From Flavobacteriales bacterium (GTDB lineage: Bacteria > Bacteroidota > Bacteroidia > Flavobacteriales > JANQLC01): DNA of 64,000 nt. The notes below the pieces were generated by a model. The model saw only the letters and a list, made by a program, of their open reading frames with translations, ran no database searches and was not told the origin of the DNA. Numbering within the stretch: position 1 is the first letter of the stretch; each line of letters opens with the position of its first letter. Positions 4,636 through 59,707 of this stretch are shown here, one piece after another. Position numbers and translations under genes: made by a program. Location of the stretch: positions 15,037-79,036 of the forward strand of contig JANQLC010000007.1 in NCBI GenBank assembly GCA_028280815.1, written 5' to 3'.

Positions 4636-4965
4636 AATCCCCGCGCAGATCCGGCGCCGTATCGACTAAAGACCCAACACCCAAAAACTGCAATCGGATT
4701 GCAAAAAATGGCTGAGGGGTGAATCAAAAAGTGGAATGGGAAAATCACCGAGGGAAAAACGCGACAAATACACCGTGTCAAGGGCATGTAACCCTAGAAT
4801 AAATCCCAGAGAAGCGGAGAATCTTCAAACCGATACCCTATACCAGAAGACCCGATAAAAACAGCTGCCCCAAGCACAGCAGCTGTAAAAGCAAACCGGC
4901 TGAGAAAGACCGGGTTCTGATTTAAATCCATACCTTTACAAAAAACTTTAAAGTCCCTTTAAAAT

Positions 4966-6918: not shown

Positions 6919-6934
6919 CCGATTCGGCAAAAAA

Positions 6935-6965
6935 CCCTTTCCAGTCATAGCAAGCTAAGAAAGGG
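6935..6965 (-). terminator. Weak intrinsic-terminator-like hairpin oriented for leftward (minus-strand) transcription
   Basis: CCCTTTC (6935-6941) pairs with GAAAGGG (6959-6965) across a 17-nt loop. On the minus strand the stem is followed by a U-run (complement of the A-run at 6929-6934). Confidence 0.3.
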
Positions 6966-7044
6966 GTTCCACGCTACCAGCCCTGTATGGATTGCGACAA
7001 TTTATAGGCGACATCGTCCCAATGCCAGCCTTTCTTATATCGAG

Positions 7045-7742
7045 CCGAGAAAAGTAAGCCCCGCTTTCAAATCGTCAAACGGAAATAAAAAAGGAATACC
7101 CATCTATAAAACCAACTCAAAAGGACAAAGACAAAGGATAAGCCTTTCAGACCGCCAACCGGAAACAAAGAATAAATCTCCTTTTTAAAGCATCATATGA
7201 GATAAAAAACCAATACCTGCCTTTCAGGCTGAGCTGCAGGATTAAATGCGAAAAAATACGACACCCCCTTTCGATCATCCCGTAGAGATAAAGGCCAAAG
7301 AAACAATTCCGCGCTTCTTAACCCGCCATGCACAGCAAAAAGCAAGCCCTTTTCCAAATCGATTTGCCGCCCTTGTAGCCATCACCCAAGATACTGTAAA
7401 ATATGCCCGAAGTAACTGCGCGACAAGGCTACCACAGCCTCAGACAAAACCAAAGAAATGTAGTCCCCCTTTCCCAATCAACAACCGAGAGCGAGAGGTG
7501 AGAAAAATGAGAGTCAAGCTGTAAACCCTCACAAAGGCGCAAAAGCAAGAGCACAAGGCTGAATTTGCAGCATGAACCTTAGAAACGACAAAAAATACGG
7601 TATGCGTTTAGACTCATTCCATAGAGATAAAACGAAGAAACAAGGCTTTTAAGTGATCTCACACAGCACAAACATAAAGAATGAGGCCAAGGCATCCAGA
7701 CTGATCCCAGTTTTCGTCTCTGAGCCCCATGCCGTACCGCAG
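7045..7742. repeat. Intergenic array of degenerate ~40-45-bp units (A-run / GC core / T-run / YAGACC tail), A+C-rich on the + strand
   Basis: Example units: CAAAGGATAAGCCTTTCAGACCGCCAACCGG (7132-7162) and AAACAAAGAATAAATCTCCTTTTT (7163-7186). It belongs to the same family as 24996-25480 and 56060-56510. There is no credible ORF. Confidence 0.6.
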
Positions 7743-7926
7743 TGCAGCTAAGGGTAAAGCGGGCCTAGCAAACCCAATCCTCAGATAAGCACTACCCTGT
7801 CCGAGGCCGATATGAAAAAAGCCCATACGCTACATGCAGCTAAGGGTAAAGAAGGGACATCAAATCCGACGTTCAGATAGGCACTACCCGACCCGACCTC
7901 AAATGATGTACCCCGCCGCGTATGGC
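7743..7926. repeat. Two tandem copies of a 92-bp segment; the right copy contains the 3' end of the carbonic anhydrase gene
   Basis: TGCAGCTAAGGGTAAAG starts both copies (7743 and 7835). The stop triplet TCA recurs at 7781 and 7873. The remnant reads ..SDRVVLI*, against the real C-terminus ..SGRVVPI*. Confidence 0.75.
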
Positions 7927-9208: not shown

Positions 9209-9481
9209 CCGTTTAAAAGAGATACCTGCAAAGAACAGCTTCTGAAAGGACAGCTCTTTTGGAAATGAGAAAAATCTTCGTCAAAGGTTTTCAGATGCAT
9301 TATTGCAGTCCGATTGTTATAGGTTAAACAGCATCCCAAATGCTGCCGATACAAAGGTAGAAAAGTTGTGCTGGAGTCCATACAACGGTCAAAGGGATGG
9401 GTTCAGTAGCCAGCACCTGGACCCGATGGGGTACAGAGTTGGAGATCGCCTGTAGAAATCGAGGTAGCAATCCAAATCGGG

Positions 9482-9555
9482 TGGAGGCGCCGAGCGGATT
9501 CGAACCGCTGTAGGCGGTTTTGCAGACCACTGCCTAGCCACTCGGCCACGGCGCC
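9482..9555 (-). tRNA. tRNA-Cys (anticodon GCA), CCA encoded
   Basis: The reverse complement folds as a cloverleaf. Acceptor stem is GGCGCCG/CGGCGCC. The anticodon stem is 5 bp with loop CTGCAAA. The T arm is AGCGG-TTCGAAT-CCGCT, followed by discriminator T and CCA. Confidence 0.9.
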
Positions 9556-9589
9556 TTAAGGATGGCAAAGGTAAACGATTTCAGCCGAA

Positions 9590-9949
9590 CTAAAAATACC
9601 GCTGCTCGAGGATTACCGATACGCGCTCCACATCTCCGCTGATGGGGGGCGCCAACTTTGAAACGCACACCTCAGCGCGCTGTACCGTCTTTAATTCCCG
9701 CCCGATGCGATCCAAAATCCGCTTTGCCACGTGTTCCAAGAGTCGGCTCTGCTGTGCCATTTCCGCCCTGGCGATCTGGTTTAATACACTGTAATCCACC
9801 GTATCGCTCAGGCGATCCGATCGCGCCCCCCGCTTTAAGTCCGCTTCCACGGTTATATCCACCCGATAATCGGAGCCTATGACGCGCTCTTCGTCCATGC
9901 AACCGTGATAGGCGTACAAACAGATATCGCGCAACACTATCTTTCCCAT
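9590..9949 (-). CDS. folB: Dihydroneopterin aldolase
   Basis: 119 aa. The N-terminus (L..CLYAYHGCMDEERVIG..Y.VD) is typical of FolB. Confidence 0.85.
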   Translation of the reverse strand: MGKIVLRDICLYAYHGCMDEERVIGSDYRVDITVEADLKRGARSDRLSDTVDYSVLNQIARAEMAQQSRLLEHVAKRILDRIGRELKTVQRAEVCVSKLAPPISGDVERVSVILEQRYF

Positions 9950-10419
9950 GGATACATTTTATCGAGTCCGCTATCGGTCGAACAAAAATACATCGAATTG
10001 AAAAACGCTGGGGGAAGTAAAGTGGGGCCGAGTGACCCATAAAGGGCAAGACGGCTCCTTACCCATCGATTACAGCTCAGTCATCATTTCCCAAGGCAGA
10101 TACAATCCTTTCTACAGCGCCTCGCAACAACCCTGCCGATAAACAAAAGGCTTCTGATCGATCAAGCTGAAAAAATAACAGCCTTGAAAAAGAGCCGCTT
10201 TAGGCCAAAAGCCGGGGTGGTTAATGATCAGTTCCCAATCGAAAAATACCCTTTGGACATCCAAAACAAAATGCCAAGTAGGGAGACAAGCCTACAGCGG
10301 CGTAACCGATGCGATTTCCACCGGGCCGATCGACTGAAGTTAGCGAAGTGTGGCCCCTGGCCCAAACCACCCCACAGGTATCGCTTTTTCCTTAGATTTG
10401 TCTCCTTTGGCTAAAACCT

Positions 10420-12108: not shown

Positions 12109-12269
12109 GCGCCTTGGGAGAGGTTTGGCTGTGGTTTAAGGCGGATGTAAGATTGGGCAACAGACCGATTCCCTAGAAATAGAACGCTGTACCACACAAG
12201 CGCGGGCTGCTTAAGGAGGCTGAGGTGGAGGAGATGTATTCGAATCGGTTTTGAGAGATGGGATGGTGG

Positions 12270-12420
12270 CCTTTTTTGTATTCGCCTGCGCATGGCATGT
12301 GAAGAAAGGGCGTTATTTTTTTGTGCTCAACCTTTTGGCGTGGTTAAGAAAAGAGGCCTATCTTTTGGATTTGCCCTATATGTGGCGTTTTGAAAAGCCA
12401 GCCTTATTCTTTTGCGTTTA
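12270..12420. repeat. Copies of the intergenic unit in G+T orientation
   Basis: GAAAGGGCGTTATTTTTTTG (12304-12323), AAGAAAAGAGGCCTATCTTTTGG (12346-12368) and GAAAAGCCAGCCTTATTCTTTTG (12392-12414). Confidence 0.5.
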
Positions 12421-12545
12421 TCACTGCTGTGCTTCAATGTAGCTCAGTGCCGATGGCGTTTGGTGTACTTAGGCGTTGGCGTGGATTGTAAAAAATGGGA
12501 GGATCGATTGGGATTTTCGCAGCATCTAATATGGGGTAGGTCTAA

Positions 12546-22352: not shown

Positions 22353-22359
22353 GGGTCCC

Positions 22360-22960
22360 GGTTCCCTCTTTCACAGTGGGAGCGTGCAAAGGCCTTTTGA
22401 GTGGGTGTTTCAATCCGCCCTTTGAGCTGGGCGGCAACTGCGCTTTTCCAAACTGAGGTCCATGCGCGCCTCAGTTGTATCGGTTGTGACTTCCCCTTGC
22501 GTTTTTTCGGCTGTAATGGATTGGGGGATTCATGTTTTTTTCGTATAGGGTCATTTCTGCTGTAGCGCATGTATTGAGTTGAGGCGTCATTTGGCTGTGG
22601 TATGGAGCGCCAATACCTAACCTTTTGTGCCTTGAGAACGGCCGGCTTTTTGGATATGCTTGCTCCATAAACTGTGCGATCCCAAAGAGAATCCTACTTT
22701 CGGCTCGGTATTTCCGCGCTGTATCGCTCTTTCTATAGACCTTGTTTTTATGTGTTTTTATGGCGAGGATAGCAGTGGGAGTGGGTCGGGCAGCTGCTGT
22801 GCGACTTTGTTGCGCTTTTGGGTTTGCCGCAGGGTTACCGGGCTTTCTGTATCGGTTTGGGGGGTGCCCTTTCGATACATGCTTGGTCGTTGGAGCCACT
22901 GGGGTGCTCGGTGGAAGTCGGATTCTGCCTTTTTGGCAGAGATGGGATTTGAAATCCCTG
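22360..22960. repeat. Intergenic repeat-rich spacer in G+T orientation, upstream of dnaK
   Basis: Units include GCAAAGGCCTTTTGAG, CCGCCCTTTGAGCTGGG, GGCCGGCTTTTTGGATA and GGGCTTTCTGTATCGGTTTGG. The only ORFs are C/F/G/V-rich low-complexity ones. Confidence 0.45.
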
Positions 22961-22982
22961 TACGCTATGGCTGGCATAGTGC

Positions 22983-23010
22983 TTGACAGGATTTAGGTCG
23001 AGAATAATCT
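22983..23010 (+). promoter_or_regulatory. Candidate sigma70-like promoter (TTGACA-N16-TAATCT) upstream of dnaK
   Basis: TTGACA lies at 22983-22988 and TAATCT at 23005-23010, 20 nt before the dnaK ATG at 23030. This is not the Bacteroidota TTTG/TAnnTTTG type. Pattern match only. Confidence 0.3.
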
Positions 23011-23029
23011 TTGAGAAAACGAATGAATC

Positions 23030-24940
23030 ATGGCTAAGACAATTGGGATAGACTTGGGTACGACCAATTCAGTGGTATCGGTGATGGAGGGCAAGGAGCC
23101 TGCGGTAATCCCGAATTCGGAGGGCAAGCGCACAACCCCTTCCATCGTCGCCTTTGTCGAGGGTGGTGAGCGGAAGATCGGCGATCCGGCCAAACGGCAG
23201 GCGGTGACCAATCCGGTGAAGACCATCTTTTCGGTTAAACGCTTTATGGGCAATAAATTTTCCGAGGTAGGTGAAGAAGTCAAACGGGTGCCTTATAAGG
23301 TGGTAAAGGGCGACAACAACACCCCCCGTGTGGATATCGGTGGCCGTTTGTACACCCCCCAAGAGATATCGGCGATGATCTTGCAAAAGATGAAGAAAAC
23401 CGCCGAGGACTACCTCGGCCAAGATGTGGGTCATGCCGTCATTACCGTACCCGCCTACTTTAACGATGCGCAGCGCCAGGCGACCAAGGAGGCTGGAGAA
23501 ATCGCGGGTTTAAAAGTGGATCGAATCATCAATGAGCCTACGGCTGCCGCCTTGGCCTATGGCTTAGACAAAGAGGCGGGCGACAAGAAGATTGCGGTTT
23601 ACGATTTGGGTGGGGGTACCTTCGATATATCCATCTTGGAATTGGGCGACGGCGTATTCGAAGTGCTCGCTACCAATGGGGATACCCACCTCGGCGGCGA
23701 TGACTTCGATCAAAAGCTCATCAGTTGGTTGACGGCTGAATTTAAAAAGGAAGAGGGCGTGGACTTGTCCAGAGATCCGATGGCGCTTCAACGTTTGAAA
23801 GAGGCGGCTGAAAAGGCGAAGATCGAGCTCTCGTCCAGCTCGCAAACCGAGATCAACCTGCCTTACATCACAGCTACGGATTCAGGTCCCAAGCACTTGG
23901 TCAAAACCTTGACCCGTGCCAAATTCGACCAGTTGACCGAAGATTTGGTCAAGCGTTCCATGCAGCCGGTAGAGAAAGCCTTGGCCGATACGGACTTAAA
24001 AGCGTCCGACATCGATGAGGTGATTTTGGTGGGCGGTTCTACGCGCATCCCTAGAATTCAAGGAGAAGTGGAAAAATTCTTCGGTAAAAAGCCTTCCAAG
24101 GGGGTAAACCCCGATGAGGTGGTAGCGGTTGGTGCGGCTATTCAAGGTGCTGTACTGACTGGAGATGTCAAAGATGTGTTGCTCTTGGATGTGACACCCC
24201 TCTCGCTCGGCATCGAAACCTTGGGCGGGGTGTTTACCCAGTTGATCGAATCCAATACGACGATCCCGACTAAAAAATCTGAGGTCTTCTCTACTGCACA
24301 GGACAACCAAAGCGCGGTGACCATTCGCGTGGGACAAGGAGAAAGGCCCATGTTTAAAGACAACAAGGAAATCGGCCGCTTTGACTTGGTGGATATCCCA
24401 CCGGCGCCCCGTGGCGTGCCCCAAATTGAAGTGACGTTTGACATCGATGCCAATGGCATACTAAACGTTTCGGCCAAGGATAAAGACACGGGTAAAGAGC
24501 AATCGATTCGCATTGAAGCCTCTTCCGGTCTGAGTGAGGCCGAGATCCAAAAGATGAAGCGCGAGGCCGAGCAAAACGCAGAATCCGATAAGAAGAACAA
24601 GGAGAAGGTCGATAAGCTCAACCAAGCGGACAGCACGGTCTTTCAAACCGAAAAGCAATTAAAGGAGTTTGGCGATAAGCTCTCTGACGCCAAGAAAAAG
24701 CCGATTGAAGCGGCTTTGGCAGAGTTGAAAAAAGCACATGAGGGTCAGGATTTGAAGGCCATTGACCCGGCTATAGAAAGGCTCAATAAGGCTTGGAGCG
24801 AAGCCTCTCAGGAGATGTACGCCGCACAGCAAAAGGCCGGATCAAAAGATTCAGCCACTGAGGGTGCAGCGGGTTCAACCGATTCGGCTGCAGCAGCGGA
24901 TGATTCAGTGCAAGATGTGGATTTTGAAGAGGTGAAGTAA
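23030..24940 (+). CDS. dnaK: Molecular chaperone DnaK (Hsp70)
   Basis: 636 aa. Motifs are [18 protein letters not shown] and the Hsp70 signature regions throughout. The C-terminus is EEVK. Confidence 0.97.
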
Positions 24941-24995
24941 AGCGCTTCGATGGCCGAGGAGGTTGTCAGCGGTTGCCGAAGTTATTGAAACGGGG

Positions 24996-25480
24996 GAACG
25001 AAAAATAAAGCCGGTCTTCAGGCCGTCAAAGGAGAAAAATAACGCCTCTTTTTTAAATCCCCACGGACAAATGCAAAAGAATAAGGGCGGATTTTCACAA
25101 CAACCCCATAGGAGCAAAAGGCAAGCCTCCTTTTTTAGACCACCGACCGGGAAAAAACAACGCTCCCTTTTTTGATGAACTACAACGGGGAATACAGTGC
25201 GACGAGTACCTTTTTTAACCACTGCCCAGGATCGAACACCAAAGGATAAAGCCGATTTTTTGACGGCCACATACGTAAAAACCCGAGAGAAACAAGTCTC
25301 CTTTTCAAAACGACAAACAGGGAAAAATAAGGCTGGACTTTTGGCAAAGGCGGAGAAATGATATCTGTCTTTCAAACCGGCTCACACGAGATGAAAACAA
25401 AAGAGCCATTCCGGCTTTTCAGACCGTCTCTATATGGAAGTACAAGGGGATAAGCGCAGCTTTCAGATTCCCTCATCTCA
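24996..25480. repeat. Array of ~12 degenerate ~40-bp units (A-run / GC core / T-run / variable tail), A+C-rich on the + strand
   Basis: Unit cores lie at 25001-25020, 25034-25054, 25075-25095, 25116-25136, 25152-25173, 25241-25261, 25322-25342 and 25413-25430. There is no conserved exact repeat and no credible ORF. Confidence 0.65.
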
Positions 25481-25489
25481 AATAGGGGT

Positions 25490-26917
25490 CTAACTGAAAT
25501 GCGCAACGGGCTTCAATCCCATGCTTTCCCCTTTTTTAAGCATAAAATCGTAGGCGGCGCGGTATTCGTTGGGTATCTCGCCTTCCAGTATGGCCTCGCG
25601 GATGGCGGTTTTTAGGGTTCCGATCTCAGGTCCGGGGCTGAGGTTAAAAGCGCTCATGATCGTCCTTCCATCGATGGGCGGTTGCCAGTTTCGGATTCGA
25701 TCGCGCTGTTCTACCGCTTTAAAGCGTTGGCGCAGCCGCTCAAAATTGCTTTTGTATTGCTCGTAGCGCTTCTTATTTTTCGTAGTGATATCGGCATCGC
25801 AGAGCCGCATCAGATCTTCGATATCGGAACCCGCATCGAAGAGCAAGCGCCGAATGGCGGAGTCCGTCGCCTGGTCGCTCACCAGCGCGATGGGTCGCGA
25901 ACTCAGACTGACCAGCTTTCTGACGTATTTCAGGGGCCTGCCAAGGGGTAATTTTAAACGTCGAAAAATGCTGGCGACCATCTTGCCGCCGACGAGCTCG
26001 TGTCCGTGGAAGGTCCAACCGATTTTTTTATCGAATTTTTTGGTGGGTGTCTTGCCGATATCGTGCAACAAAGCAGCCCATCGCAGCCAGAGATCAGTCG
26101 TGTTTGGGCTGATGTTGTCCACCACTTCTAAGCTGTGGTAGAAATTGTCCTTGTGGCTTTGACCCTCCCTTTCATCCACGCCTTTGAGCGCCTGCAACTC
26201 GGGAAGTATGTAGGTCAGCAAGCCACTTTTTTCCAACAACAACAGGCCGTGTGAAGGTTTTTTGCTCAGCATGATTCGGTTGAACTCCTCTGCGATTCGT
26301 TGCATAGAGACAATCGCGATGCGCGCTTTGTTTTTGCTGAGCGCCTGAAAGGACGCTCGTTCGATGGAGAACTTGAGTTGTGCGGCAAAGCGAATGGCGC
26401 GCAACATGCGCAGGGGATCGTCCGAATAGGTGATATCCGGATTCAAAGGCGTGCGGATCAGTCGCTTTCTTAAATCCCTCAGCCCGTCAAAGGGATCGAC
26501 CAATACGCCGCGGTTTGCCCGGTTCAACCCGATGGCCAATGCATTGATGGTGAAATCGCGGCGGTTTTGATCGGCTCGCAAACTGCCTGTTTCCACGATG
26601 GGCTTGCGACTGTCAGGGCGGTAGGATTCCTTTCGTGCACCGACAAACTCGATTTTCAAACCCCGAAATTTGAGCATGGCCGTGCCGAAGTTTTTGAAGA
26701 CCGATACGCCGACCTGCCCCGGTAGCAACTGCGCTGTTTTTTTTGCCAAGTCAATCCCACTGCCGATGCAGACGATATCGATATCGCGCTTCTGATCGCG
26801 CTGTAGTAAGAAATCTCTGACGAACCCGCCGACCACATAGGTCTCTAAGTCTAAGGCTTCGGCGGCTCGAGAGAGGGTTCTAAAAATGGGCGCGTCTATG
26901 GCTTCGGGCAGTTGCAT
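25490..26917 (-). CDS. tRNA nucleotidyltransferase (CCA-adding / poly(A) polymerase family) with an HD domain
   Basis: 475 aa. It has an N-terminal GGFVRD..D.D nucleotidyltransferase motif and a central HD motif (LLHDIGK). Confidence 0.85.
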   Translation of the reverse strand: MQLPEAIDAPIFRTLSRAAEALDLETYVVGGFVRDFLLQRDQKRDIDIVCIGSGIDLAKKTAQLLPGQVGVSVFKNFGTAMLKFRGLKIEFVGARKESYRPDSRKPIVETGSLRADQNRRDFTINALAIGLNRANRGVLVDPFDGLRDLRKRLIRTPLNPDITYSDDPLRMLRAIRFAAQLKFSIERASFQALSKNKARIAIVSMQRIAEEFNRIMLSKKPSHGLLLLEKSGLLTYILPELQALKGVDEREGQSHKDNFYHSLEVVDNISPNTTDLWLRWAALLHDIGKTPTKKFDKKIGWTFHGHELVGGKMVASIFRRLKLPLGRPLKYVRKLVSLSSRPIALVSDQATDSAIRRLLFDAGSDIEDLMRLCDADITTKNKKRYEQYKSNFERLRQRFKAVEQRDRIRNWQPPIDGRTIMSAFNLSPGPEIGTLKTAIREAILEGEIPNEYRAAYDFMLKKGESMGLKPVAHFS

Positions 26918-33585: not shown

Positions 33586-33594
33586 GCGAGCGAA

Positions 33595-37179: not shown

Positions 37180-37251
37180 CTATCGGTTTGGGTGCAAAAC
37201 TAAGGTGTCTTTTCTTACAATTTTTAGTAATTTTGAAAAAAATATAAAAGC

Positions 37252-44259: not shown

Positions 44260-44284
44260 TCGCTTGCTGCAGCAATGAATTTTT

Positions 44285-44310
44285 GGGCCTCGCTTAGCGA
44301 GGCTTTTTTT
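44285..44310 (+). terminator. Rho-independent terminator of the csp gene
   Basis: GCCTCGC (44287-44293), a TTA loop and GCGAGGC (44297-44303), followed by T7 (44304-44310). Confidence 0.65.
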
Positions 44311-46140
44311 GTCCTTGCCCCCTTGTGCAGGCTTGAGCGCTCGGTCTCGTTTTCTCAGCCTTGGGTTTTTTACGTTTGTCTCTCATTCAATTGGCTTGGG
44401 GGATTTGGGGTGCTTGCACGGATGCATTATTGCGTTGGTTGGCGGTGACGTGGCTGGGTTGAGTTGCTGCGTTGGCGGTTGGTTAGCTGTGCTGGCTTGA
44501 ATGGGGTTGATCGGGTTGCGCTGTTGGGTTATTAAGTTGGTTTTTTGACGCTGTTGGTGTGCTTGGGTTGCTTTCTCGGCTTTGTCTTTTTGTGCGCGCT
44601 TCAAGGCTTGGGCCTGCTCTCCAATGCTGTTTGGCAGTTGAAAAGGAACTGTTTTTTCCGCTGGGCTGATCGGCTTTGTCGTGTATTTGTCTCGGCAGGC
44701 CTTTTTACCGTGATCGGTGGGGCAGCAGCTGTAATGCGCTGATTTGAGGGGCGTCCCCGTTTTTTGGTGCCCTCTCTTTGTGGCGGTTAAAAAGAGGGGT
44801 TTGTCCTTTTAAGCTCCGTCTTCTCGCGATCGTTGGAAAGCGGAAATTGCTTTTTGTTTTGGCTTTGCGTGTGTGGGTTCTCAGCGGGTTTGGGCTGCTT
44901 GGGTAGCGGTTGCTTCGACGACTGAGTAGGGCTGGATCGTCGAATGGGTTGGAGCGGTTGGTCTGTCCAGTGAATTGGCTTGTCGCTGTGATGGATTGAG
45001 TGCGTGGATGGATTGGGACTACTCGATTGATTCAGTGAGCTGCTGCGTGGGCCTGTGGGTTGGATTGAGCAGCTCGGATGGGTTTGTCCTTCGTCGAGCG
45101 CCTTGCATGGGATCTTTCTACAGTTGATGTAGGTGGCTTTTGGACTGCGTTGTTTTCCCCCTTCCTTATGCCGGGTTTTTTGCATTTGTCTTTTCTGTGA
45201 TGGGCGTATGCGGGTTTGTCGGTTGGGGGCTGTCATTCCGCTGCGTTTGCATAGGAGGTGCTTTGGTATTGTTCCTGTCGGGATTTTGCATTTGTCTTTT
45301 CTGCGATGGGTGTAAGTGGCTTTTGGGCTTCTCGTTTTTTGTCCCTTGTCCCCATTCGGGCTTTTCGCATGGTTTCGTACAATTTGTGTAGGCAGATTTT
45401 GGTTTCCCTGGCTTGGATTGGGTGCGCGGATGGGTTGGTGGGTTCAGTGAGTCGGTTTGTCGTTGTGGTTGATTGGGCGGGTGAAGGGGTTGACTTATTC
45501 AGTGGGTTGGATTGTTTGAGCTGCTTGGTTTGGTGGGTTGTTGTGATGGGTTCATCGGTGCATGGGTTTGGAAAAGGCGGTTTCTCTTTTGGTCTTTCCC
45601 TTTTGTGACTGTTTGGGATGCTGCACGTATTTCCCCCTTCTCGTTTGAGTTGGTTTGAAATCGCAAAAGCACGACTGTGTCCTCACCATTGAATGGGGGT
45701 TGAAAAAGTGGACGTTGTTTTTTATTTTGTCTTGTGTGGTGTCTTGAGAAGAGGGTGTGACTCTTTTGTCTCTGCCTTGCATGAGACATCTGATCCCTTA
45801 TTCTTTTGTCCTTGTTATCGATCACCAATTTAAAGGAGGAGGAGGTTTGTTTTTATCTCTCGGAGCGGGCCAAAGCTCATGAGCGTTTTTGTCTTTGCCT
45901 CTATGAGACCGTTTGAAAGCGCTGTTTTGTCTTTTGGTGTTCATCGTTGAGACCTTGAAAGGTAGGAGTTATCCTTTGCTTTTGTCCTTTTTTGGGGTGA
46001 GAAGAGCTGTTTTTCTGCGCTCGTCCTTTGTTGGTACTCATCCTGTCTCGCAGTTTAAAAAGCGCGTGCTATCCTTTGTTTTTATCCTTTTTGAGTCGGC
46101 GATCGGCTTTTCGCTCGTCTGGAGTCGACATCTCAGGCGA
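44311..46140. repeat. 1.8-kb gene-free, G+T-skewed tract of nested degenerate repeats
   Basis: TTTGTC occurs 18 times on the + strand, and I saw no GACAAA on the + strand. Near-identical ~37-nt copies lie at 45172-45208 and 45278-45314. There are three GGNTTG-rich blocks. Reverse-complement copies of the ~40-bp unit lie at 45880-46100. Confidence 0.7.
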
Positions 46141-48125: not shown

Positions 48126-48276
48126 GCCGATTTTATTTAGGCGCTAATTTAACAAAAGCGACGATCATTTCCCCTAGGGAGATATCCGCCCTGTGTCCAA
48201 GCGTTTTTATAGTGTTTTGCACAATGCCGGTATGGGTTTGGGAGGGGACATCGCCCTTTCTCTAATGTAAATTTTG

Positions 48277-48299
48277 AGCCTCCAGGAGGCTGGTTTTTT
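48277..48299 (+). terminator. Orphan terminator-like hairpin with T-run on the + strand
   Basis: AGCCT (48277-48281), a CCAGG loop and AGGCT (48287-48291), followed by GGTTTTTT. No + strand gene lies upstream. It sits ~200 nt before the HD gene. Confidence 0.4.
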
Positions 48300-48500
48300 G
48301 TCAGTGCTGTATCCATCCGAAGGCTGCGTGCATTCGATGCGTCCATGGTGATGTTTGCAGGATTCTCACCGGTCAGAAGTGATGGGCCTTGGGTCGATCA
48401 GGCGCCTGACTTCCAGATTTTTTGATCGATATCGAATTTTTTGGCCAATGGGGCTTTTATCATTACTTTTGCGTGGGCTCTAAACCCTGGCTGATAGACC

Positions 48501-55825: not shown

Positions 55826-56059
55826 AGCACAAAGATAAGAAAATGGGGTTCGCCCATCAGGTGCTCGGTGTCGCGTTGGTAGAAAGGTACAAAAAATGAC
55901 GTTCGTATGGTGAATGGCATCAATTTTTTTGCACTGTTGGTAAAAGTGGTGGGAAAAAGACCGTTATATCCTATCGATAACCAGCTTGTCTGCTGTTCTT
56001 CTTCCCCTGGTTGCGAAGCCTGAGCGAATCGCTTCAGCCGTTGAATCCATCTCAGGAAG

Positions 56060-56510
56060 AAGGCTTTGTCTATTCAGGCTAAAACAAAGGGTCAAAAGTG
56101 AAAAAAATAGGTCAAATTTTAAGTTGACCCTTAGAGGCGAGCGCCAAAAATAGGCTCCCCTTTTTCAAGTGTCAACCGGAGGTAAAAGCGTAAGACCAAC
56201 TTCTAAACCCGCACGAGAGGACAGAGACAAAGAATGGGGTTGGGTCTTAGCCGTTCCATGGATCAAAGAAATGAGTTTCTCTCTTTAAAATGTCAAATAG
56301 GAGTCAAAAAACACCCCCTTTTTTCAAACTGTCGAACTGGACGAAAGCGTAAAGGCTGGCTTTTAGACCGCAACCGGGGAGGAGATACAATCCGAAAGAC
56401 GAGACGTCCTTTGTTGCGCACCTGGCTTGCTTCTCGTTTTTATCAACTTCAGAGCGTTTTTCAAGCGCTTGAAAGGATACCCTTTTGCCTTTGTCAATCC
56501 GAGTGCTTGA
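56060..56510. repeat. Intergenic array of the ~40-bp unit family, A+C-rich on the + strand
   Basis: Units include GCCAAAAATAGGCTCCCCTTTTTCAAGTGTCAACCGG (starts 56144), AAAAAACACCCCCTTTTTTCAAACTGTCGAACTGG and TAAAGGCTGGCTTTTAGACCGCAACCGGGG (56350-56379). Confidence 0.6.
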
Positions 56511-56540
56511 GAAAAAGTAAGGCTGACCTTTCGGCCAGCC
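56511..56540 (-). terminator. Intrinsic terminator of the TonB-dependent receptor gene
   Basis: GGCTGACC (56521-56528), a TTTC loop and GGCCAGCC (56533-56540). On the minus strand the hairpin is followed by TTACTTTTTC. It lies 29 nt past the stop. Confidence 0.5.
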
Positions 56541-56568
56541 TTTGGTGTTTTAAAAAATGGAATCGCAC

Positions 56569-58968: not shown

Positions 58969-59707
58969 AATATTGGATGGTTTTGTAAGTGATAGATCGA
59001 TTTTGTTTTCGCGGTATTAAATCGAGGGAGGAGGCGCCTTGTTGGGGTTATTTGTCCAGCATAGCGCGAGGCGTGTACGCTGTGGTTTTAAGTCGGTGCA
59101 TTTTGCTCGGATTGCTGCGAAGTATGGCCGGGCGCAAGAAAATGCGAGCCGCTGTCGGATTCAGGGTTGCTATGCCGTGTTGAATCAGGCAAACCACACA
59201 GGGTCTGCCAACCGATTTCCCTTGAGAACCGTGCTTGTGCGATGTGACAAAATCCTGAAAAAGCCTGAGCGAAAACAGGCTGGACAAACCGATTTGGACT
59301 CCTTTTTTCACCTGTTTCGTCCTTTTCATGCGACAAAGGTAAAGGTTTGAAAATACCTCACAAGGAATTTTGTCGCAGGGCTGCCTTTCCGTTACAGGCG
59401 GTTTGGAATTTGGTTCCCATTGCGGCTTTTCGCCTTTTTATCCGCGCTGCGGTTGCTATTTTTAGTCTGCTTTCCCCGTGTTTTTGGGTTGGAAGGGCTT
59501 TGCCCCTTTTCTACTCGTCTTTGCACAGGGTATAGGCTGGTGGCTTGTAAGGGCTGTAAGCCCGTCGTTCGCCTTTTTCTCGTGATTGTATTCTAGCGCA
59601 TTTGACCACAGCTGTCCCCCCATCAACTCAATTGATGCGATGAGTAGGCCTGAAAAGGCGGATAGTTTGTATTTTCGTGGGCTGGAAAGAGAGATGAGCC
59701 CTAGCTT

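What the first reader, a model, noticed from the sequence alone, without database searches (positions are those of the whole stretch)
24941..25489. Array of ~12 degenerate ~40-bp units downstream of dnaK: type locus of a dispersed intergenic repeat family
The 549-bp convergent spacer between dnaK and the CCA-enzyme gene is not random sequence. It reads as about 12 consecutive units of 33-50 bp. Each unit has an A-run (often AAAAATAA), a 5-10-nt G/C-rich core, a T4-6 run, and then a ~12-20-nt tail that often begins YAGACC/YAAAC.

Examples:
- AAAAATAAAGCCGGTCTTCA (25001-25020)
- GAAAAATAACGCCTCTTTTTT (25034-25054)
- AAAAGAATAAGGGCGGATTTT (25075-25095)
- AAAAGGCAAGCCTCCTTTTTT (25116-25136)
- AAAAAACAACGCTCCCTTTTTT (25152-25173)
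- AAAGGATAAAGCCGATTTTTT (25241-25261)
- GAAAAATAAGGCTGGACTTTT (25322-25342)
- GGCTTTTCAGACCGTCTC (25413-25430)

The + strand is A>T and C>G throughout. The same unit type fills other long spacers:
- A+C orientation: 7045-7742, about 10169-10280, and 56060-56510
- G+T orientation: 12270-12420, 22360-22960, 44311-46140, and about 59340-59600

Polarity therefore flips between loci. It does not track the orientation of flanking genes, because convergent, divergent and co-directional spacers all occur.

Eleven spacers in this window are at least 330 bp. The period of ~40 bp is about four helical turns, and the paired A- and T-tracts would be compatible with phased DNA bending. The A+C-rich strand would also resemble a Rho-utilisation (C-rich, G-poor) RNA. 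Both ideas are speculation.
Basis: seen in the sequence. Interest (0 to 1): 0.62.

Follow-up and report, generated by a model that had tools for sequence, protein, structure and literature searches.

The report
Degenerate 42-bp intergenic repeat arrays
The gap between dnaK and the CCA-enzyme gene really is a run of twelve loosely similar ~42-bp units, part of a previously undescribed repeat family that fills promoter-free gaps between genes in one small, partly coral-associated Flavobacteriales lineage; what it does is not known.

Summary
Window 24990-25474 is 12 head-to-tail units. T-run spacing is 31-46 bp (CV 0.115, against 0.79±0.21 in 2000 shuffles, none as low).

The consensus is loose: A-rich tract, C-rich core, C-TTTT, CAAAC. 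A matrix trained only on another genome finds 23 sites in the window. All are intergenic and none lie in 53.6 kb of coding DNA. Members are 6919-7872, 12290-12430, 44640-44840, 45560-46140 and 56150-56450. The listed spacers 22360-22960 and 59340-59600 are not supported.

The family also occurs in three related MAGs, but not in more distant relatives or in 1.49 Mb of other Flavobacteriales.

- No excess RNA structure, no terminator hairpins, no Bacteroidetes promoter motifs, no Rfam match, no helical phasing.
- Arrays favour convergent spacers (7/20 against 5/97).
- Units within an array are no more alike than units from different genomes, so this is not a classical VNTR.
- Arrays are unchanged between MAGs 99.93% identical. 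At 94% gene identity only the array edges still align.

Best reading: non-coding, satellite-like filler made of terminator-flank-like modules. It changes by whole-unit loss or gain, and its pattern, not its sequence, persists. Function is unproven.

The parts
24990..25474 (+). Array of 12 degenerate units, read on the A-rich strand. Unit starts: 24990, 25028, 25063, 25108, 25145, 25182, 25228, 25271, 25315, 25354, 25384, 25431.
   Evidence: Segmentation tiles the sequence exactly. Periodicity statistics are (z 5.1). Six sites score >=10 bits with a matrix trained on another genome.
24944..24982 (+). Hairpin just after the dnaK stop codon, followed by UUAUU. It is a possible dnaK terminator and marks the left edge of the array. 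It is not a unit.
   Evidence: -16.1 kcal/mol, but z is only -0.8 against shuffles, so this is tentative.
7020..7720 (+). Array of the same family between the thioredoxin-like gene and the carbonic anhydrase gene (convergent spacer 6919-7872).
   Evidence: Matrix sites at 7065, 7145, 7182 and 7470. Periodicity z 3.7-4.6. An HMM built only from the dnaK array hits 7041-7076, E 4.7e-3. The orthologous spacer in SANT21-1 holds an array in the same orientation.
12290..12430 (-). About three units 3' of the NifU-like gene (convergent spacer 12109-12545).
   Evidence: HMM hit 12422-12384, E 1.6e-4. 9-mer sharing z 12.6. Matrix site at 12396 scores 21.8 bits. Periodicity z 2.8.
45560..46140 (-). Array of about 10 units 3' of the DUF4258 gene. 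It is the right-hand part of the 1.9-kb spacer 44260-46140.
   Evidence: Matrix sites at 45575, 45707, 45918, 45960 and 46061. Periodicity z 3.6. 9-mer sharing z 6.5 for the whole spacer. The orthologous spacer in MAG2-Ocu2016 is an 879-nt array.
44640..44840 (-). Three more unit-like sites inside the strongly skewed part of the same spacer.
   Evidence: Matrix sites at 44644, 44793 and 44839. HMM hit 44818-44782.
56150..56450 (+). Units between the TonB-receptor terminator and the AI-2E transporter promoter motif (co-directional spacer). They are antisense to both genes.
   Evidence: Matrix sites at 56161 and 56319. Periodicity z 2.4. Terminator at 56542-56519. -7 motif at 55837-55830.
10169..10280 (+). 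A single unit-like site upstream of the GlnRS promoter motif. It is weak and is not an array.
   Evidence: One matrix site at 10199, 11.5 bits. 9-mer sharing z 3.3. No periodicity, z 0.0.

Best explanation
**What it is.** These are non-coding tandem arrays of a lineage-specific module of about 42 bp. Each module has an A-rich tract of about 15 nt, a C-rich core of about 5 nt, C-TTTT(T), then CAAAC and a C-rich tail.

**Where it sits.** The arrays occupy DNA outside transcription units, chiefly the gap between two convergent genes. They lie beyond candidate terminators and lack promoter motifs.

**How it behaves.** I read them as satellite-like filler DNA, not as a gene, an RNA or a sequence-specific site. 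The module looks like the A-tract / stem-arm / T-tract flank of a bidirectional intrinsic terminator without a usable stem.
- Arrays change by in-register loss (and presumably gain) of whole units between neighbouring modules.
- Substitution runs at about the neutral rate or faster.
- So arrays are stable between near-identical strains, but sequence orthology is largely lost between species.

**What is inferred.** The modular pattern, the location and usually the orientation persist across species whose coding DNA is only ~83% identical. From this I infer weak selection on the pattern, not on the sequence. The most plausible role is a buffer that absorbs read-through from either side and keeps neighbouring transcription units apart.

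**Shown:** existence, periodicity, family membership, location bias, absence of RNA structure, promoters and phasing, the unit-size indel, and turnover.
**Inferred:** the link to terminators, the buffer role, and selection on pattern.
For: - **Periodic array:**
- **Family is real across genomes.** A matrix trained on SANT21-1 units finds 23 window sites >=10 bits. All are intergenic (2.2 per kb), none lie in 53.6 kb of coding DNA, and the density is 0.07 per kb in 1.49 Mb of other Flavobacteriales. With leave-one-genome-out training, 73 sites score >=9 bits and only 2 are in coding DNA.
- **Location.** Arrays occur in 7/20 convergent, 1/19 divergent and 4/78 co-directional spacers, Fisher p 7e-4. 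They sit beyond the Csp terminator (44285-44305) and the TonB-receptor terminator (56542-56519). The Bacteroidetes -7 motif TAnnTTTG lies 20-35 nt before many start codons and is almost absent from arrays.
- **Not an RNA.** Folding z is +0.28 and +1.11 on the two strands. Rfam finds nothing.
- **Unit-size change.** Two exact words shared by L082 and L001, a 17-mer and an 18-mer, lie on diagonals 41 nt apart. The L001 unit looks like a hybrid of two adjacent L082 units.
- **Turnover.** The L082 and L001 genes are 94% identical and ordinary spacers 80-91%. The array interior is 65% identical, no better than against non-orthologous arrays (66-70%), and the lengths are 842 against 441 nt.
- **Short-term stability.** Two MAGs 99.93% identical over 15.7 kb differ at 10 positions. 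One of these is in the 879-nt array, and there is no unit indel.
- **Persistence of place.** Arrays are present 3' of CCA, 3' of carbonic anhydrase and between Csp and DUF4258 in both the window and its relatives, in the same relative orientation.
- **Terminator link.** The + strand of the TonB-receptor terminator reads GAGAAAAAGTAAGGCTGACC, nearly the left half of unit 25322-25342. The Csp terminator's T-tail plus GTCCTT is the reverse complement of the unit's AAGGACAAAAA.
Against: - Nothing tests function directly.
- Units do not have terminator hairpins. The energy of the 28 nt upstream of T tracts equals shuffles on the A-rich strand (p 0.59). It is only 0.4 kcal/mol lower on the other strand (p 0.005). 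Terminator-like sites are not enriched.
- Units in one array are no more alike than units from other arrays or genomes: mean score 0.43 against 0.53 and 0.95, and the best partner is in the same array 9 times against 9.1 expected. Adjacent units are only slightly more alike (1.87). So there is no trace of recent local duplication, which a slippage-driven satellite should leave.
- The source of new units, and what keeps the consensus, remain unexplained.
- The convergent-spacer bias is also what any harmless insertion would show, and orthologous spacers were counted more than once.
- The evidence for turnover rests on one pair of metagenome assemblies at one locus.
Confidence: 0.42

Rival explanations
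1. The arrays are functional stacks of weak bidirectional intrinsic terminators. Each unit (A tract, short G+C element, T tract) stops a fraction of polymerases coming from either side, and many in series give tight insulation between convergent genes.
For: - The unit layout mirrors a bidirectional terminator.
- Arrays are enriched in convergent spacers.
- One canonical terminator is built on a unit-like half.
- Hairpins upstream of T tracts on the G+T strand are slightly more stable.
- The CCA gene has no canonical terminator apart from the small hairpin plus T tract inside the array at 25416-25404.
Against: - There is no hairpin excess on the A-rich strand, and only 0.4 kcal/mol on the other.
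- Whole-array folding is not better than shuffles.
- Terminator-like sites are 2 against 1.7 expected in the region.
- Several arrays lie behind a strong terminator that would already have stopped transcription.
- Arrays also occur in divergent and co-directional spacers.
Confidence: 0.2
2. The arrays are DNA-level binding platforms for a lineage-specific or nucleoid-associated protein. One protein binds per ~42 bp, marking or insulating boundaries between transcription units. Selection acts on a loose binding motif (C-TTTT-CAAAC with an upstream A tract), which would explain a conserved pattern without conserved sequence.
For: - The pattern, place and usually orientation persist across species while the sequence does not.
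- Spacing is regular at 42.4±6.7 bp.
- Arrays lie in apparently untranscribed DNA.
- The family is confined to one small clade.
- The best-conserved positions form a short motif, C at -1, the T run, then C-A-A.
Against: - No candidate protein was identified; all genes in the window are housekeeping.
- Information content outside C-TTTT-CAA is very low.
- Spacing shows no helical phasing, which cooperative binding on one face would favour.
- Strong strand asymmetry is not needed for a duplex-binding site.
Confidence: 0.15
3. The arrays are remnants of a small mobile element (MITE-like or minisatellite-bearing, like BrickBuilt) that spread to many spacers and has since decayed.
For: - It is a dispersed family in both orientations, confined to one lineage, and placed where insertions are harmless.
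- Synteny breaks between the window and its relatives fall at arrays.
- Bacteroidota has a precedent: the BrickBuilt minisatellite inside a MITE in Porphyromonas gingivalis (PMC4596501).
Against: - No terminal inverted repeats or conserved leader and tail were found around arrays.
- No near-identical copies occur between loci; the best same-genome inter-array unit pair scores 22 of 46.
- No transposase or other mobile-element gene is present in 64 kb.
- Arrays sit at the same orthologous positions in different species, so they are old there.
- Old decayed copies should have lost the shared pattern.
Confidence: 0.1
4. The arrays work as RNA. The A+C-rich strand would act as an unstructured Rho-loading (rut) region, or as a protein sponge carrying repeated GGA / A-rich motifs (CsrB-like).
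For: - The A-rich strand is unstructured.
- C exceeds G in several arrays, for example 0.31 against 0.18 in 44260-46140 read on the - strand.
- Many units begin with GGA/GGG followed by an A run.
Against: - The dnaK array has C = G.
- Orientation relative to the incoming gene is inconsistent: sense twice and antisense twice in unambiguous spacers, and the GlnRS 3' array is flipped between species.
- Arrays lack Bacteroidetes promoter motifs and lie behind terminators.
- There is no Rfam match.
- No CsrA-type gene was seen in the window.
Confidence: 0.08
5. The arrays cause intrinsic DNA curvature through A and T tracts phased at four helical turns.
For: The mean period of 42 bp is close to 4 x 10.5, and each unit has an A tract and a T tract about 16 bp apart.
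Against: Spacings range from 28 to 49 bp with SD 6.7. Their remainders modulo 10, 10.5 or 11 bp are uniform (Rayleigh R 0.09-0.14, p 0.36-0.69, n 53). The bends would therefore not add up.
Confidence: 0.03

Closest known systems
MIRU / VNTR-type dispersed minisatellites (Mycobacterium tuberculosis; from my own knowledge)
   Same: Tandem direct repeats of 40-100 bp, at many intergenic loci of one genome, oriented, non-palindromic. Arrays change by whole-unit gain or loss.
   Different: - MIRU copies are highly similar, and copy number varies between close strains. Here units are only about 60-70% alike, with no within-array homogenisation. Two MAGs 99.93% identical show no copy-number change.
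- MIRUs sit inside operons and overlap stop and start codons. These arrays favour convergent, promoter-free gaps.
REP / BIME elements of enterobacteria and pseudomonads (from my own knowledge)
   Same: A short extragenic family, clustered, concentrated after gene 3' ends and between convergent genes, lineage-specific, with proposed roles in termination, insulation and mRNA protection.
   Different: - REPs are strong G+C-rich palindromes, and clusters alternate in orientation.
- These units have no hairpin excess, and all point the same way within an array.
BrickBuilt minisatellite within a MITE, Porphyromonas gingivalis (PMC4596501)
   Same: A member of Bacteroidota, strictly intergenic, a tandem unit array at many loci, species-restricted.
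   Different: - BrickBuilt has a 23-nt well-conserved unit, leader and tail segments with inverted-repeat ends, and promoter activity.
- Here the unit is about 42 bp and degenerate, no ends or inverted repeats were found, and promoter motifs are absent.
Bidirectional intrinsic terminators
   Same: The same order of elements (A tract, G+C element, T tract) and the same place (between convergent genes). One real terminator in the window shares a half with a unit.
   Different: The G+C element is too short and not self-complementary. There is no hairpin excess, and terminator-like sites are not enriched.
CRISPR arrays
   Same: Regular spacing of a recognisable element separated by variable sequence, non-coding, with content that differs between related genomes while the flanks are conserved.
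   Different: The period is about 42 bp, not about 60-72. The 'repeat' part is degenerate, not near-identical. There are no cas genes in the window. Arrays occur at many loci, in most of the long convergent spacers.

Membership tests
MIRU/VNTR-type minisatellite | Tandem direct repeats of about 40-100 bp in intergenic DNA at several loci | tested here: met
   12 units of 30-47 nt at 24990-25474. Further arrays are present in other window spacers and in relatives.
MIRU/VNTR-type minisatellite | Copies within an array are highly similar (recent duplication or homogenisation) | tested here: not met
   Mean unit score is 0.43 within an array, 0.53 between arrays and 0.95 between genomes. The best partner lies in the same array 9 times against 9.1 expected. 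TRF finds nothing.
MIRU/VNTR-type minisatellite | Copy number varies between closely related strains | tested here: not met
   L210 and L211 are 99.93% identical over 15.7 kb and their 879-nt arrays have the same length, with 1 substitution. Copy number does differ at 94% gene identity. This rests on a single pair.
REP/BIME | The unit is an imperfect palindrome that forms a stable stem-loop | tested here: not met
   Folding z is +0.28 and +1.11. Local hairpin energies equal shuffles.
REP/BIME | Extragenic, mainly after 3' ends and between convergent genes | tested here: met
   7/20 convergent spacers against 5/97 others, p 7e-4.
REP/BIME | Association with a RAYT (REP-associated tyrosine transposase) in the genome | not testable with these tools
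   Only 64 kb of this genome is available, and no transposase-like gene was seen in it.
MITE (including BrickBuilt) | Terminal inverted repeats, defined ends, target-site duplication | tested here: not met
   No meaningful inverted repeats bracket the arrays. Arrays fade into the flanks.
MITE (including BrickBuilt) | Multiple near-identical copies in one genome | tested here: not met
   The best inter-array unit pair in one genome scores 22 of 46. Only part of each genome was sampled.
Intrinsic (Rho-independent) terminator | G+C-rich hairpin immediately followed by a U tract | tested here: not met
   (p 0.59; the other strand is lower by only 0.4 kcal/mol). (2 sites against 1.7 expected).
Rho utilisation (rut) region | C-rich, G-poor, unstructured RNA downstream of the gene to be terminated, on the transcribed strand | tested here: inconclusive
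   The RNA is unstructured. However, C = G at this locus, and array orientation relative to the upstream gene is inconsistent. There are no transcription data.
CRISPR array | Near-identical repeats of 23-50 nt alternating with unique spacers of similar length; cas genes nearby | tested here: not met
   The period is 42 bp, the conserved part is only C-TTTT-CAA, and there are no cas genes in the window.
Known RNA family (Rfam 15) | Match to a curated covariance model | tested here: not met
   The only hit is tRNA-Cys at gathering threshold. Nothing better than E 0.2 is found in the arrays with permissive settings.
CsrB/RsmZ-type protein-sponge RNA | Own promoter and terminator; GGA motifs presented in hairpin loops | tested here: not met
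   There is no Bacteroidetes promoter motif in or before the dnaK array and no hairpins. GGA is frequent at unit starts, but that is composition-level evidence only.

The most novel reading that the evidence does not exclude
The ~42-bp modules may be kept by selection as a loose, polar DNA signal read by a lineage-specific protein. That protein would mark or insulate the boundaries of transcription units, a bacterial 'boundary element'. Alternatively, the modules may be continually rewritten by an unknown process that lays down noisy copies of one template. Either would explain why pattern, place and orientation survive across species while the sequence is replaced and neighbouring units show no kinship.
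Probability: 0.15. Interest if true: 0.75.

Novelty: new variant of a known kind. Interest (0 to 1): 0.5.

Why it matters
- **Rarity.** Dispersed non-coding tandem-repeat families are rare in prokaryotes. A survey of 261 reference genomes found transposed long-unit satellite families in only two species (PMC6749651).
- **Unusual behaviour.** This family is degenerate, polar, non-palindromic and not locally homogenised, yet its pattern and positions outlast its sequence.
- **If the pattern is selected,** it would point to a sequence-tolerant way of separating transcription units in Bacteroidota, whose promoters and translation signals already differ from the textbook model.
- **If the pattern is not selected,** the family is a clean case of how junk DNA accumulates and turns over in a bacterial genome.
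- **Practical consequences.** The A-poor strand of these arrays yields long false ORFs that gene callers annotate. Arrays also coincide with assembly breaks and synteny breaks.

Tried and rejected
- **Tandem Repeats Finder:** no array reported. The units are too diverged.
- **Iterated nhmmer:** collapsed to a narrow model. I replaced it with a T-run-anchored matrix with cross-genome training.
- **Structured RNA:** rejected.
- **Coding:** rejected. Unit lengths are not multiples of 3, and TAA occurs in most units. The 156-aa ORF at 24905-25375(-) and similar ORFs are artefacts of an A-poor strand.
- **Promoter arrays:** rejected. TAnnTTTG is nearly absent from arrays, and the TTTG-to-TA spacing inside units is about 12 nt, not about 19-21.
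- **Intrinsic terminator stacks:** not supported.
- **Helical phasing:** rejected.
- **Hypermutable or contingency locus:** rejected for short time scales.
- **Catalogued element:** no match in plasmid or phage collections or in Rfam.
- **More distant relatives** (CCA 75-78% identical): they have a tRNA gene and a short spacer in place of the array.
- **Literature searches:** found no description of such arrays.
Full report
**Setting.** The window comes from a ~50% G+C member of Flavobacteriales.
- Its genes are ordinary housekeeping genes: gldL/M/N, GlnRS, NifU-like, BamA, DnaK, CCA-adding enzyme, Nramp, LpxC/D, GyrA and others.
- Two Logan assemblies carry the same sequence (SRR20820734 and SRR20820732).
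- The nearest relatives found are:
  - MAG2-Ocu2016, a MAG from the coral Oculina patagonica (CCA enzyme 86% identical; loci L001 and L210);
  - a second MAG, GCA_044670265.1, almost identical to MAG2-Ocu2016 (L211);
  - the SANT21-1 assembly of ERZ23496374 (CCA 84%, GlnRS 82%; L082 and L087).
- The next relatives are 73-78% identical, and all others about 65%.

- The spacer 24941-25489 lies between dnaK (23030-24940, +) and the CCA-enzyme gene (25490-26917, -).
- After a hairpin at 24944-24982, the sequence divides into 12 head-to-tail units of 30-47 nt covering 24990-25474.
- T-run spacings are 31-46 bp. CV is 0.115 against 0.79±0.21 in 2000 dinucleotide shuffles, none as low.
- Autocorrelation peaks at lags 41 and 80, z 4.2 and 3.8.
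- The + strand is A>T but not C>G at this locus.

**The unit.** I anchored 88 units from the window and relatives on their T runs.
- The consensus is an A-rich stretch (positions -23 to -7, 50-68% A), a C-rich core (-5 to -1; 82% C at -1), T3-7, then C-A-A-a-C and a C-rich tail.
- Only C-TTTT-CAA carries much information.
- Spacing is 42.4±6.7 bp.

**Is it a family?** Yes.
- An HMM built only from the 12 dnaK units finds sites in three other spacers, E 1.6e-4 to 8.9e-3.
- 9-mer sharing with the dnaK array exceeds shuffles for four spacers, in the matching orientation only:

| Spacer | z |
|---|---|
| 12109-12545 | 12.6 |
| 44260-46140 | 6.5 |
| 10050-10419 | 3.3 |
| 6919-7872 | 2.3 |

- A matrix trained only on SANT21-1 units finds 23 window sites >=10 bits. 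All are in the 16% of the window that is intergenic. None lie in 53.6 kb of coding DNA, and the density in 1.49 Mb of other Flavobacteriales loci is 0.07 per kb.
- With leave-one-genome-out training, 73 sites score >=9 bits and only 2 are in coding DNA. Within a spacer nearly all sites share one strand.
- The ~42-bp periodicity is significant in these arrays:

| Region | z |
|---|---|
| window 6919-7872 | 4.6 |
| window 12109-12545 | 2.8 |
| window 45560-46140 | 3.6 |
| window 55826-56568 | 2.4 |
| L001 array | 6.0 |
| L082 array | 4.4 |
| three of the four L087 arrays | 2.4-3.5 |

- The fourth L087 array, 9265-10000, is weaker (z 1.9; 9 of 300 shuffles reach it).
- There is no periodicity in 22353-23029, 48126-48500, 58969-59707, 4636-4965, 10050-10419 or 44311-45560.

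**Where the arrays lie.**
- Across 117 spacers in five loci, arrays occupy 7 of 20 convergent, 1 of 19 divergent and 4 of 78 co-directional spacers. Fisher p is 7e-4, but orthologous spacers are counted more than once.
- The Bacteroidetes -7 promoter motif TAnnTTTG lies 20-35 nt upstream of many start codons. It is almost absent from arrays.
- Arrays lie distal to the strong terminators of the Csp gene (44285-44305) and the TonB-receptor gene (56542-56519).
- The arrays therefore appear to sit outside transcription units.
- Orientation does not follow the neighbouring genes. In co-directional spacers the A-rich strand is sense in L087 621-994 and L210 1859-2208. It is antisense in L087 6279-7199 and window 55826-56568.
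- Orientation also flips within the window, although cumulative GC skew rises monotonically. It therefore does not follow replication direction either.

**What the arrays are not.**
- Not coding: unit lengths are not multiples of three, TAA is common, and the long ORFs on the A-poor strand translate to nonsense.
- Not structured RNA: z +0.28 and +1.11, and no Rfam match.
- Not canonical terminators.
- Not promoter arrays.
- Not helically phased.
- Not similar to anything in the plasmid or phage collections.

**How the arrays evolve.**
- *Very close pair.* L210 and L211 are 99.93% identical over 15.7 kb. They differ at 10 positions, one of them in the 879-nt array, and have no length change. 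The arrays are therefore not contingency loci.
- *Moderately close pair.* L082 and L001 have CCA genes 94% identical and third codon positions 88% identical.
  - Ordinary spacers are 80-91% identical.
  - The first ~60 nt and last ~100 nt of the CCA-LysR spacer are ~95% identical.
  - The array interiors are 699 and 288 nt long. They align at 65%, no better than L001 aligns to non-orthologous arrays (66-70%).
  - Near the CCA end, two shared exact words (17 and 18 nt) lie on diagonals 41 nt apart. One whole unit is present in L082 and absent from L001, and the L001 unit looks like a hybrid of two adjacent L082 units. That is the signature of in-register deletion between neighbouring units.
- *Between species.* At ~83% coding identity, arrays persist in the same spacers: 3' of CCA, 3' of carbonic anhydrase and between Csp and DUF4258. 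The relative orientation is the same even where the other neighbour has changed (dnaK against LysR). The GlnRS 3' array is flipped.
- *No local kinship.* Units of one array are no more alike than units from other arrays or genomes. Adjacent units score 1.87, non-adjacent units 0.43, other arrays 0.53, other genomes 0.95, and the shuffled null -3.8.

**Interpretation.** The facts fit non-coding, satellite-like filler built from a module that resembles the flank of a bidirectional terminator.
- One real terminator shares its left half with a unit.
- The Csp terminator's T-tail plus GTCCTT is the reverse complement of the unit's A-rich start.
- The filler is tolerated mainly where there are no promoters, and it changes by whole-unit loss or gain and by roughly neutral substitution.
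- What this does not explain is why the pattern persists when the sequence does not, and why there is no sign of recent local duplication. That gap leaves room for weak selection on the pattern (a read-through buffer, or a loose protein-binding signal) or for an unknown regenerating process.
- I therefore give the filler/buffer reading 0.42. The terminator-stack, protein-platform, decayed-mobile-element and RNA readings score lower.

**Comparison with known elements.** The nearest classes are MIRU/VNTR minisatellites, REP/BIME, BrickBuilt (PMC4596501), bidirectional terminators and CRISPR. The arrays fail at least one defining feature of each (see the membership table). Dispersed non-coding satellite families are reported as rare in prokaryotes (PMC6749651). 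I found no description of this family, and it is absent from more distant Flavobacteriales. I class it as a new variant of the known kind 'interspersed intergenic repeat family'.

**Limits.**
- All relatives are metagenome assemblies.
- The turnover result rests on one locus pair.
- Only parts of each genome were sampled.
- There are no expression or binding data.
- The one metagenome-wide pattern scan was swamped by chance matches.

Noticed in passing
window 44311-45560: This is 1.25 kb of extremely skewed DNA. A is only about 12% across the whole 44260-46140 spacer, with GC skew +0.27 to +0.29 and AT skew -0.36 to -0.50. It is not periodic at ~42 bp and has few unit sites. It contains a 40-nt direct repeat, 45178-45217 / 45284-45323, at 88% identity. 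In MAG2-Ocu2016 the orthologous Csp/DUF4258 spacer is half as long and is all unit array. It may be a decayed array or something else.
   Followed up: partly
window 7743-7804 and 7835-7896: A 62-nt direct repeat (76% identical) lies at the 3' end of the carbonic anhydrase gene, and the second copy overlaps the end of the coding region. It is unrelated to the ~42-bp units.
   Followed up: no
window, e.g. 8515-8508(-), 10393-10400(+), 13472-13465(-), 35482-35475(-), 37228-37235(+), 48464-48471(+), 55837-55830(-): The Bacteroidetes -7 promoter motif TAnnTTTG sits 20-35 nt upstream of many start codons, which implies very short 5' leaders. None was found in the 677-nt spacer upstream of dnaK.
   Followed up: partly
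window 24941-25489, 12109-12545, 6919-7872 against L082 11438-12279, L087 11669-12170, L087 6279-7199: Gene-order differences between the window genome and its relatives fall exactly at arrays: CCA|dnaK against CCA|LysR, GlnRS|NifU against GlnRS|DMRL synthase, and Trx-like|CA against polysaccharide-synthesis gene|CA. Arrays may be rearrangement junctions, or they may simply mark operon borders.
   Followed up: partly
L083 (ends 126 nt past the CCA stop codon), L088 (both ends): Short-read Logan contigs of the SANT21-1-like organism stop inside arrays, although the arrays contain no long exact repeats. Low coverage or population heterogeneity could explain this.
   Followed up: no
window 24905-25375(-), 22471-22977(-), 44787-45236(-); L081 13941-14447; L211 11734-12240: Some skewed spacers give long open frames with nonsense, low-complexity translations. 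On an A-poor strand stop codons are rare. Two of these frames were called as genes in public annotations and have no Pfam match.
   Followed up: partly
window 56519-56542(-) against 25322-25342(+): The TonB-receptor terminator hairpin reads GAGAAAAAGTAAGGCTGACC on the + strand. This is nearly identical to the left half of a dnaK-array unit (GAAAAATAAGGCTGGAC) and of units at about 12400 and in L082. So a real terminator shares descent or design with the units.
   Followed up: partly
L084 11650-11715, L085 10545-10609, L086 4880-4938: In relatives 75-78% identical, three independent contigs all end in the same conserved sequence about 130-275 nt downstream of the CCA gene, where the window has the array. 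It looks like a tRNA gene, but I did not run a tRNA search on it.
   Followed up: no
L001 3866-4594: MAG2-Ocu2016 has a 729-nt A+T-rich insert between two genes that are 9 nt apart in the window (33586-33594). It is not a unit array and may be a gene remnant.
   Followed up: no
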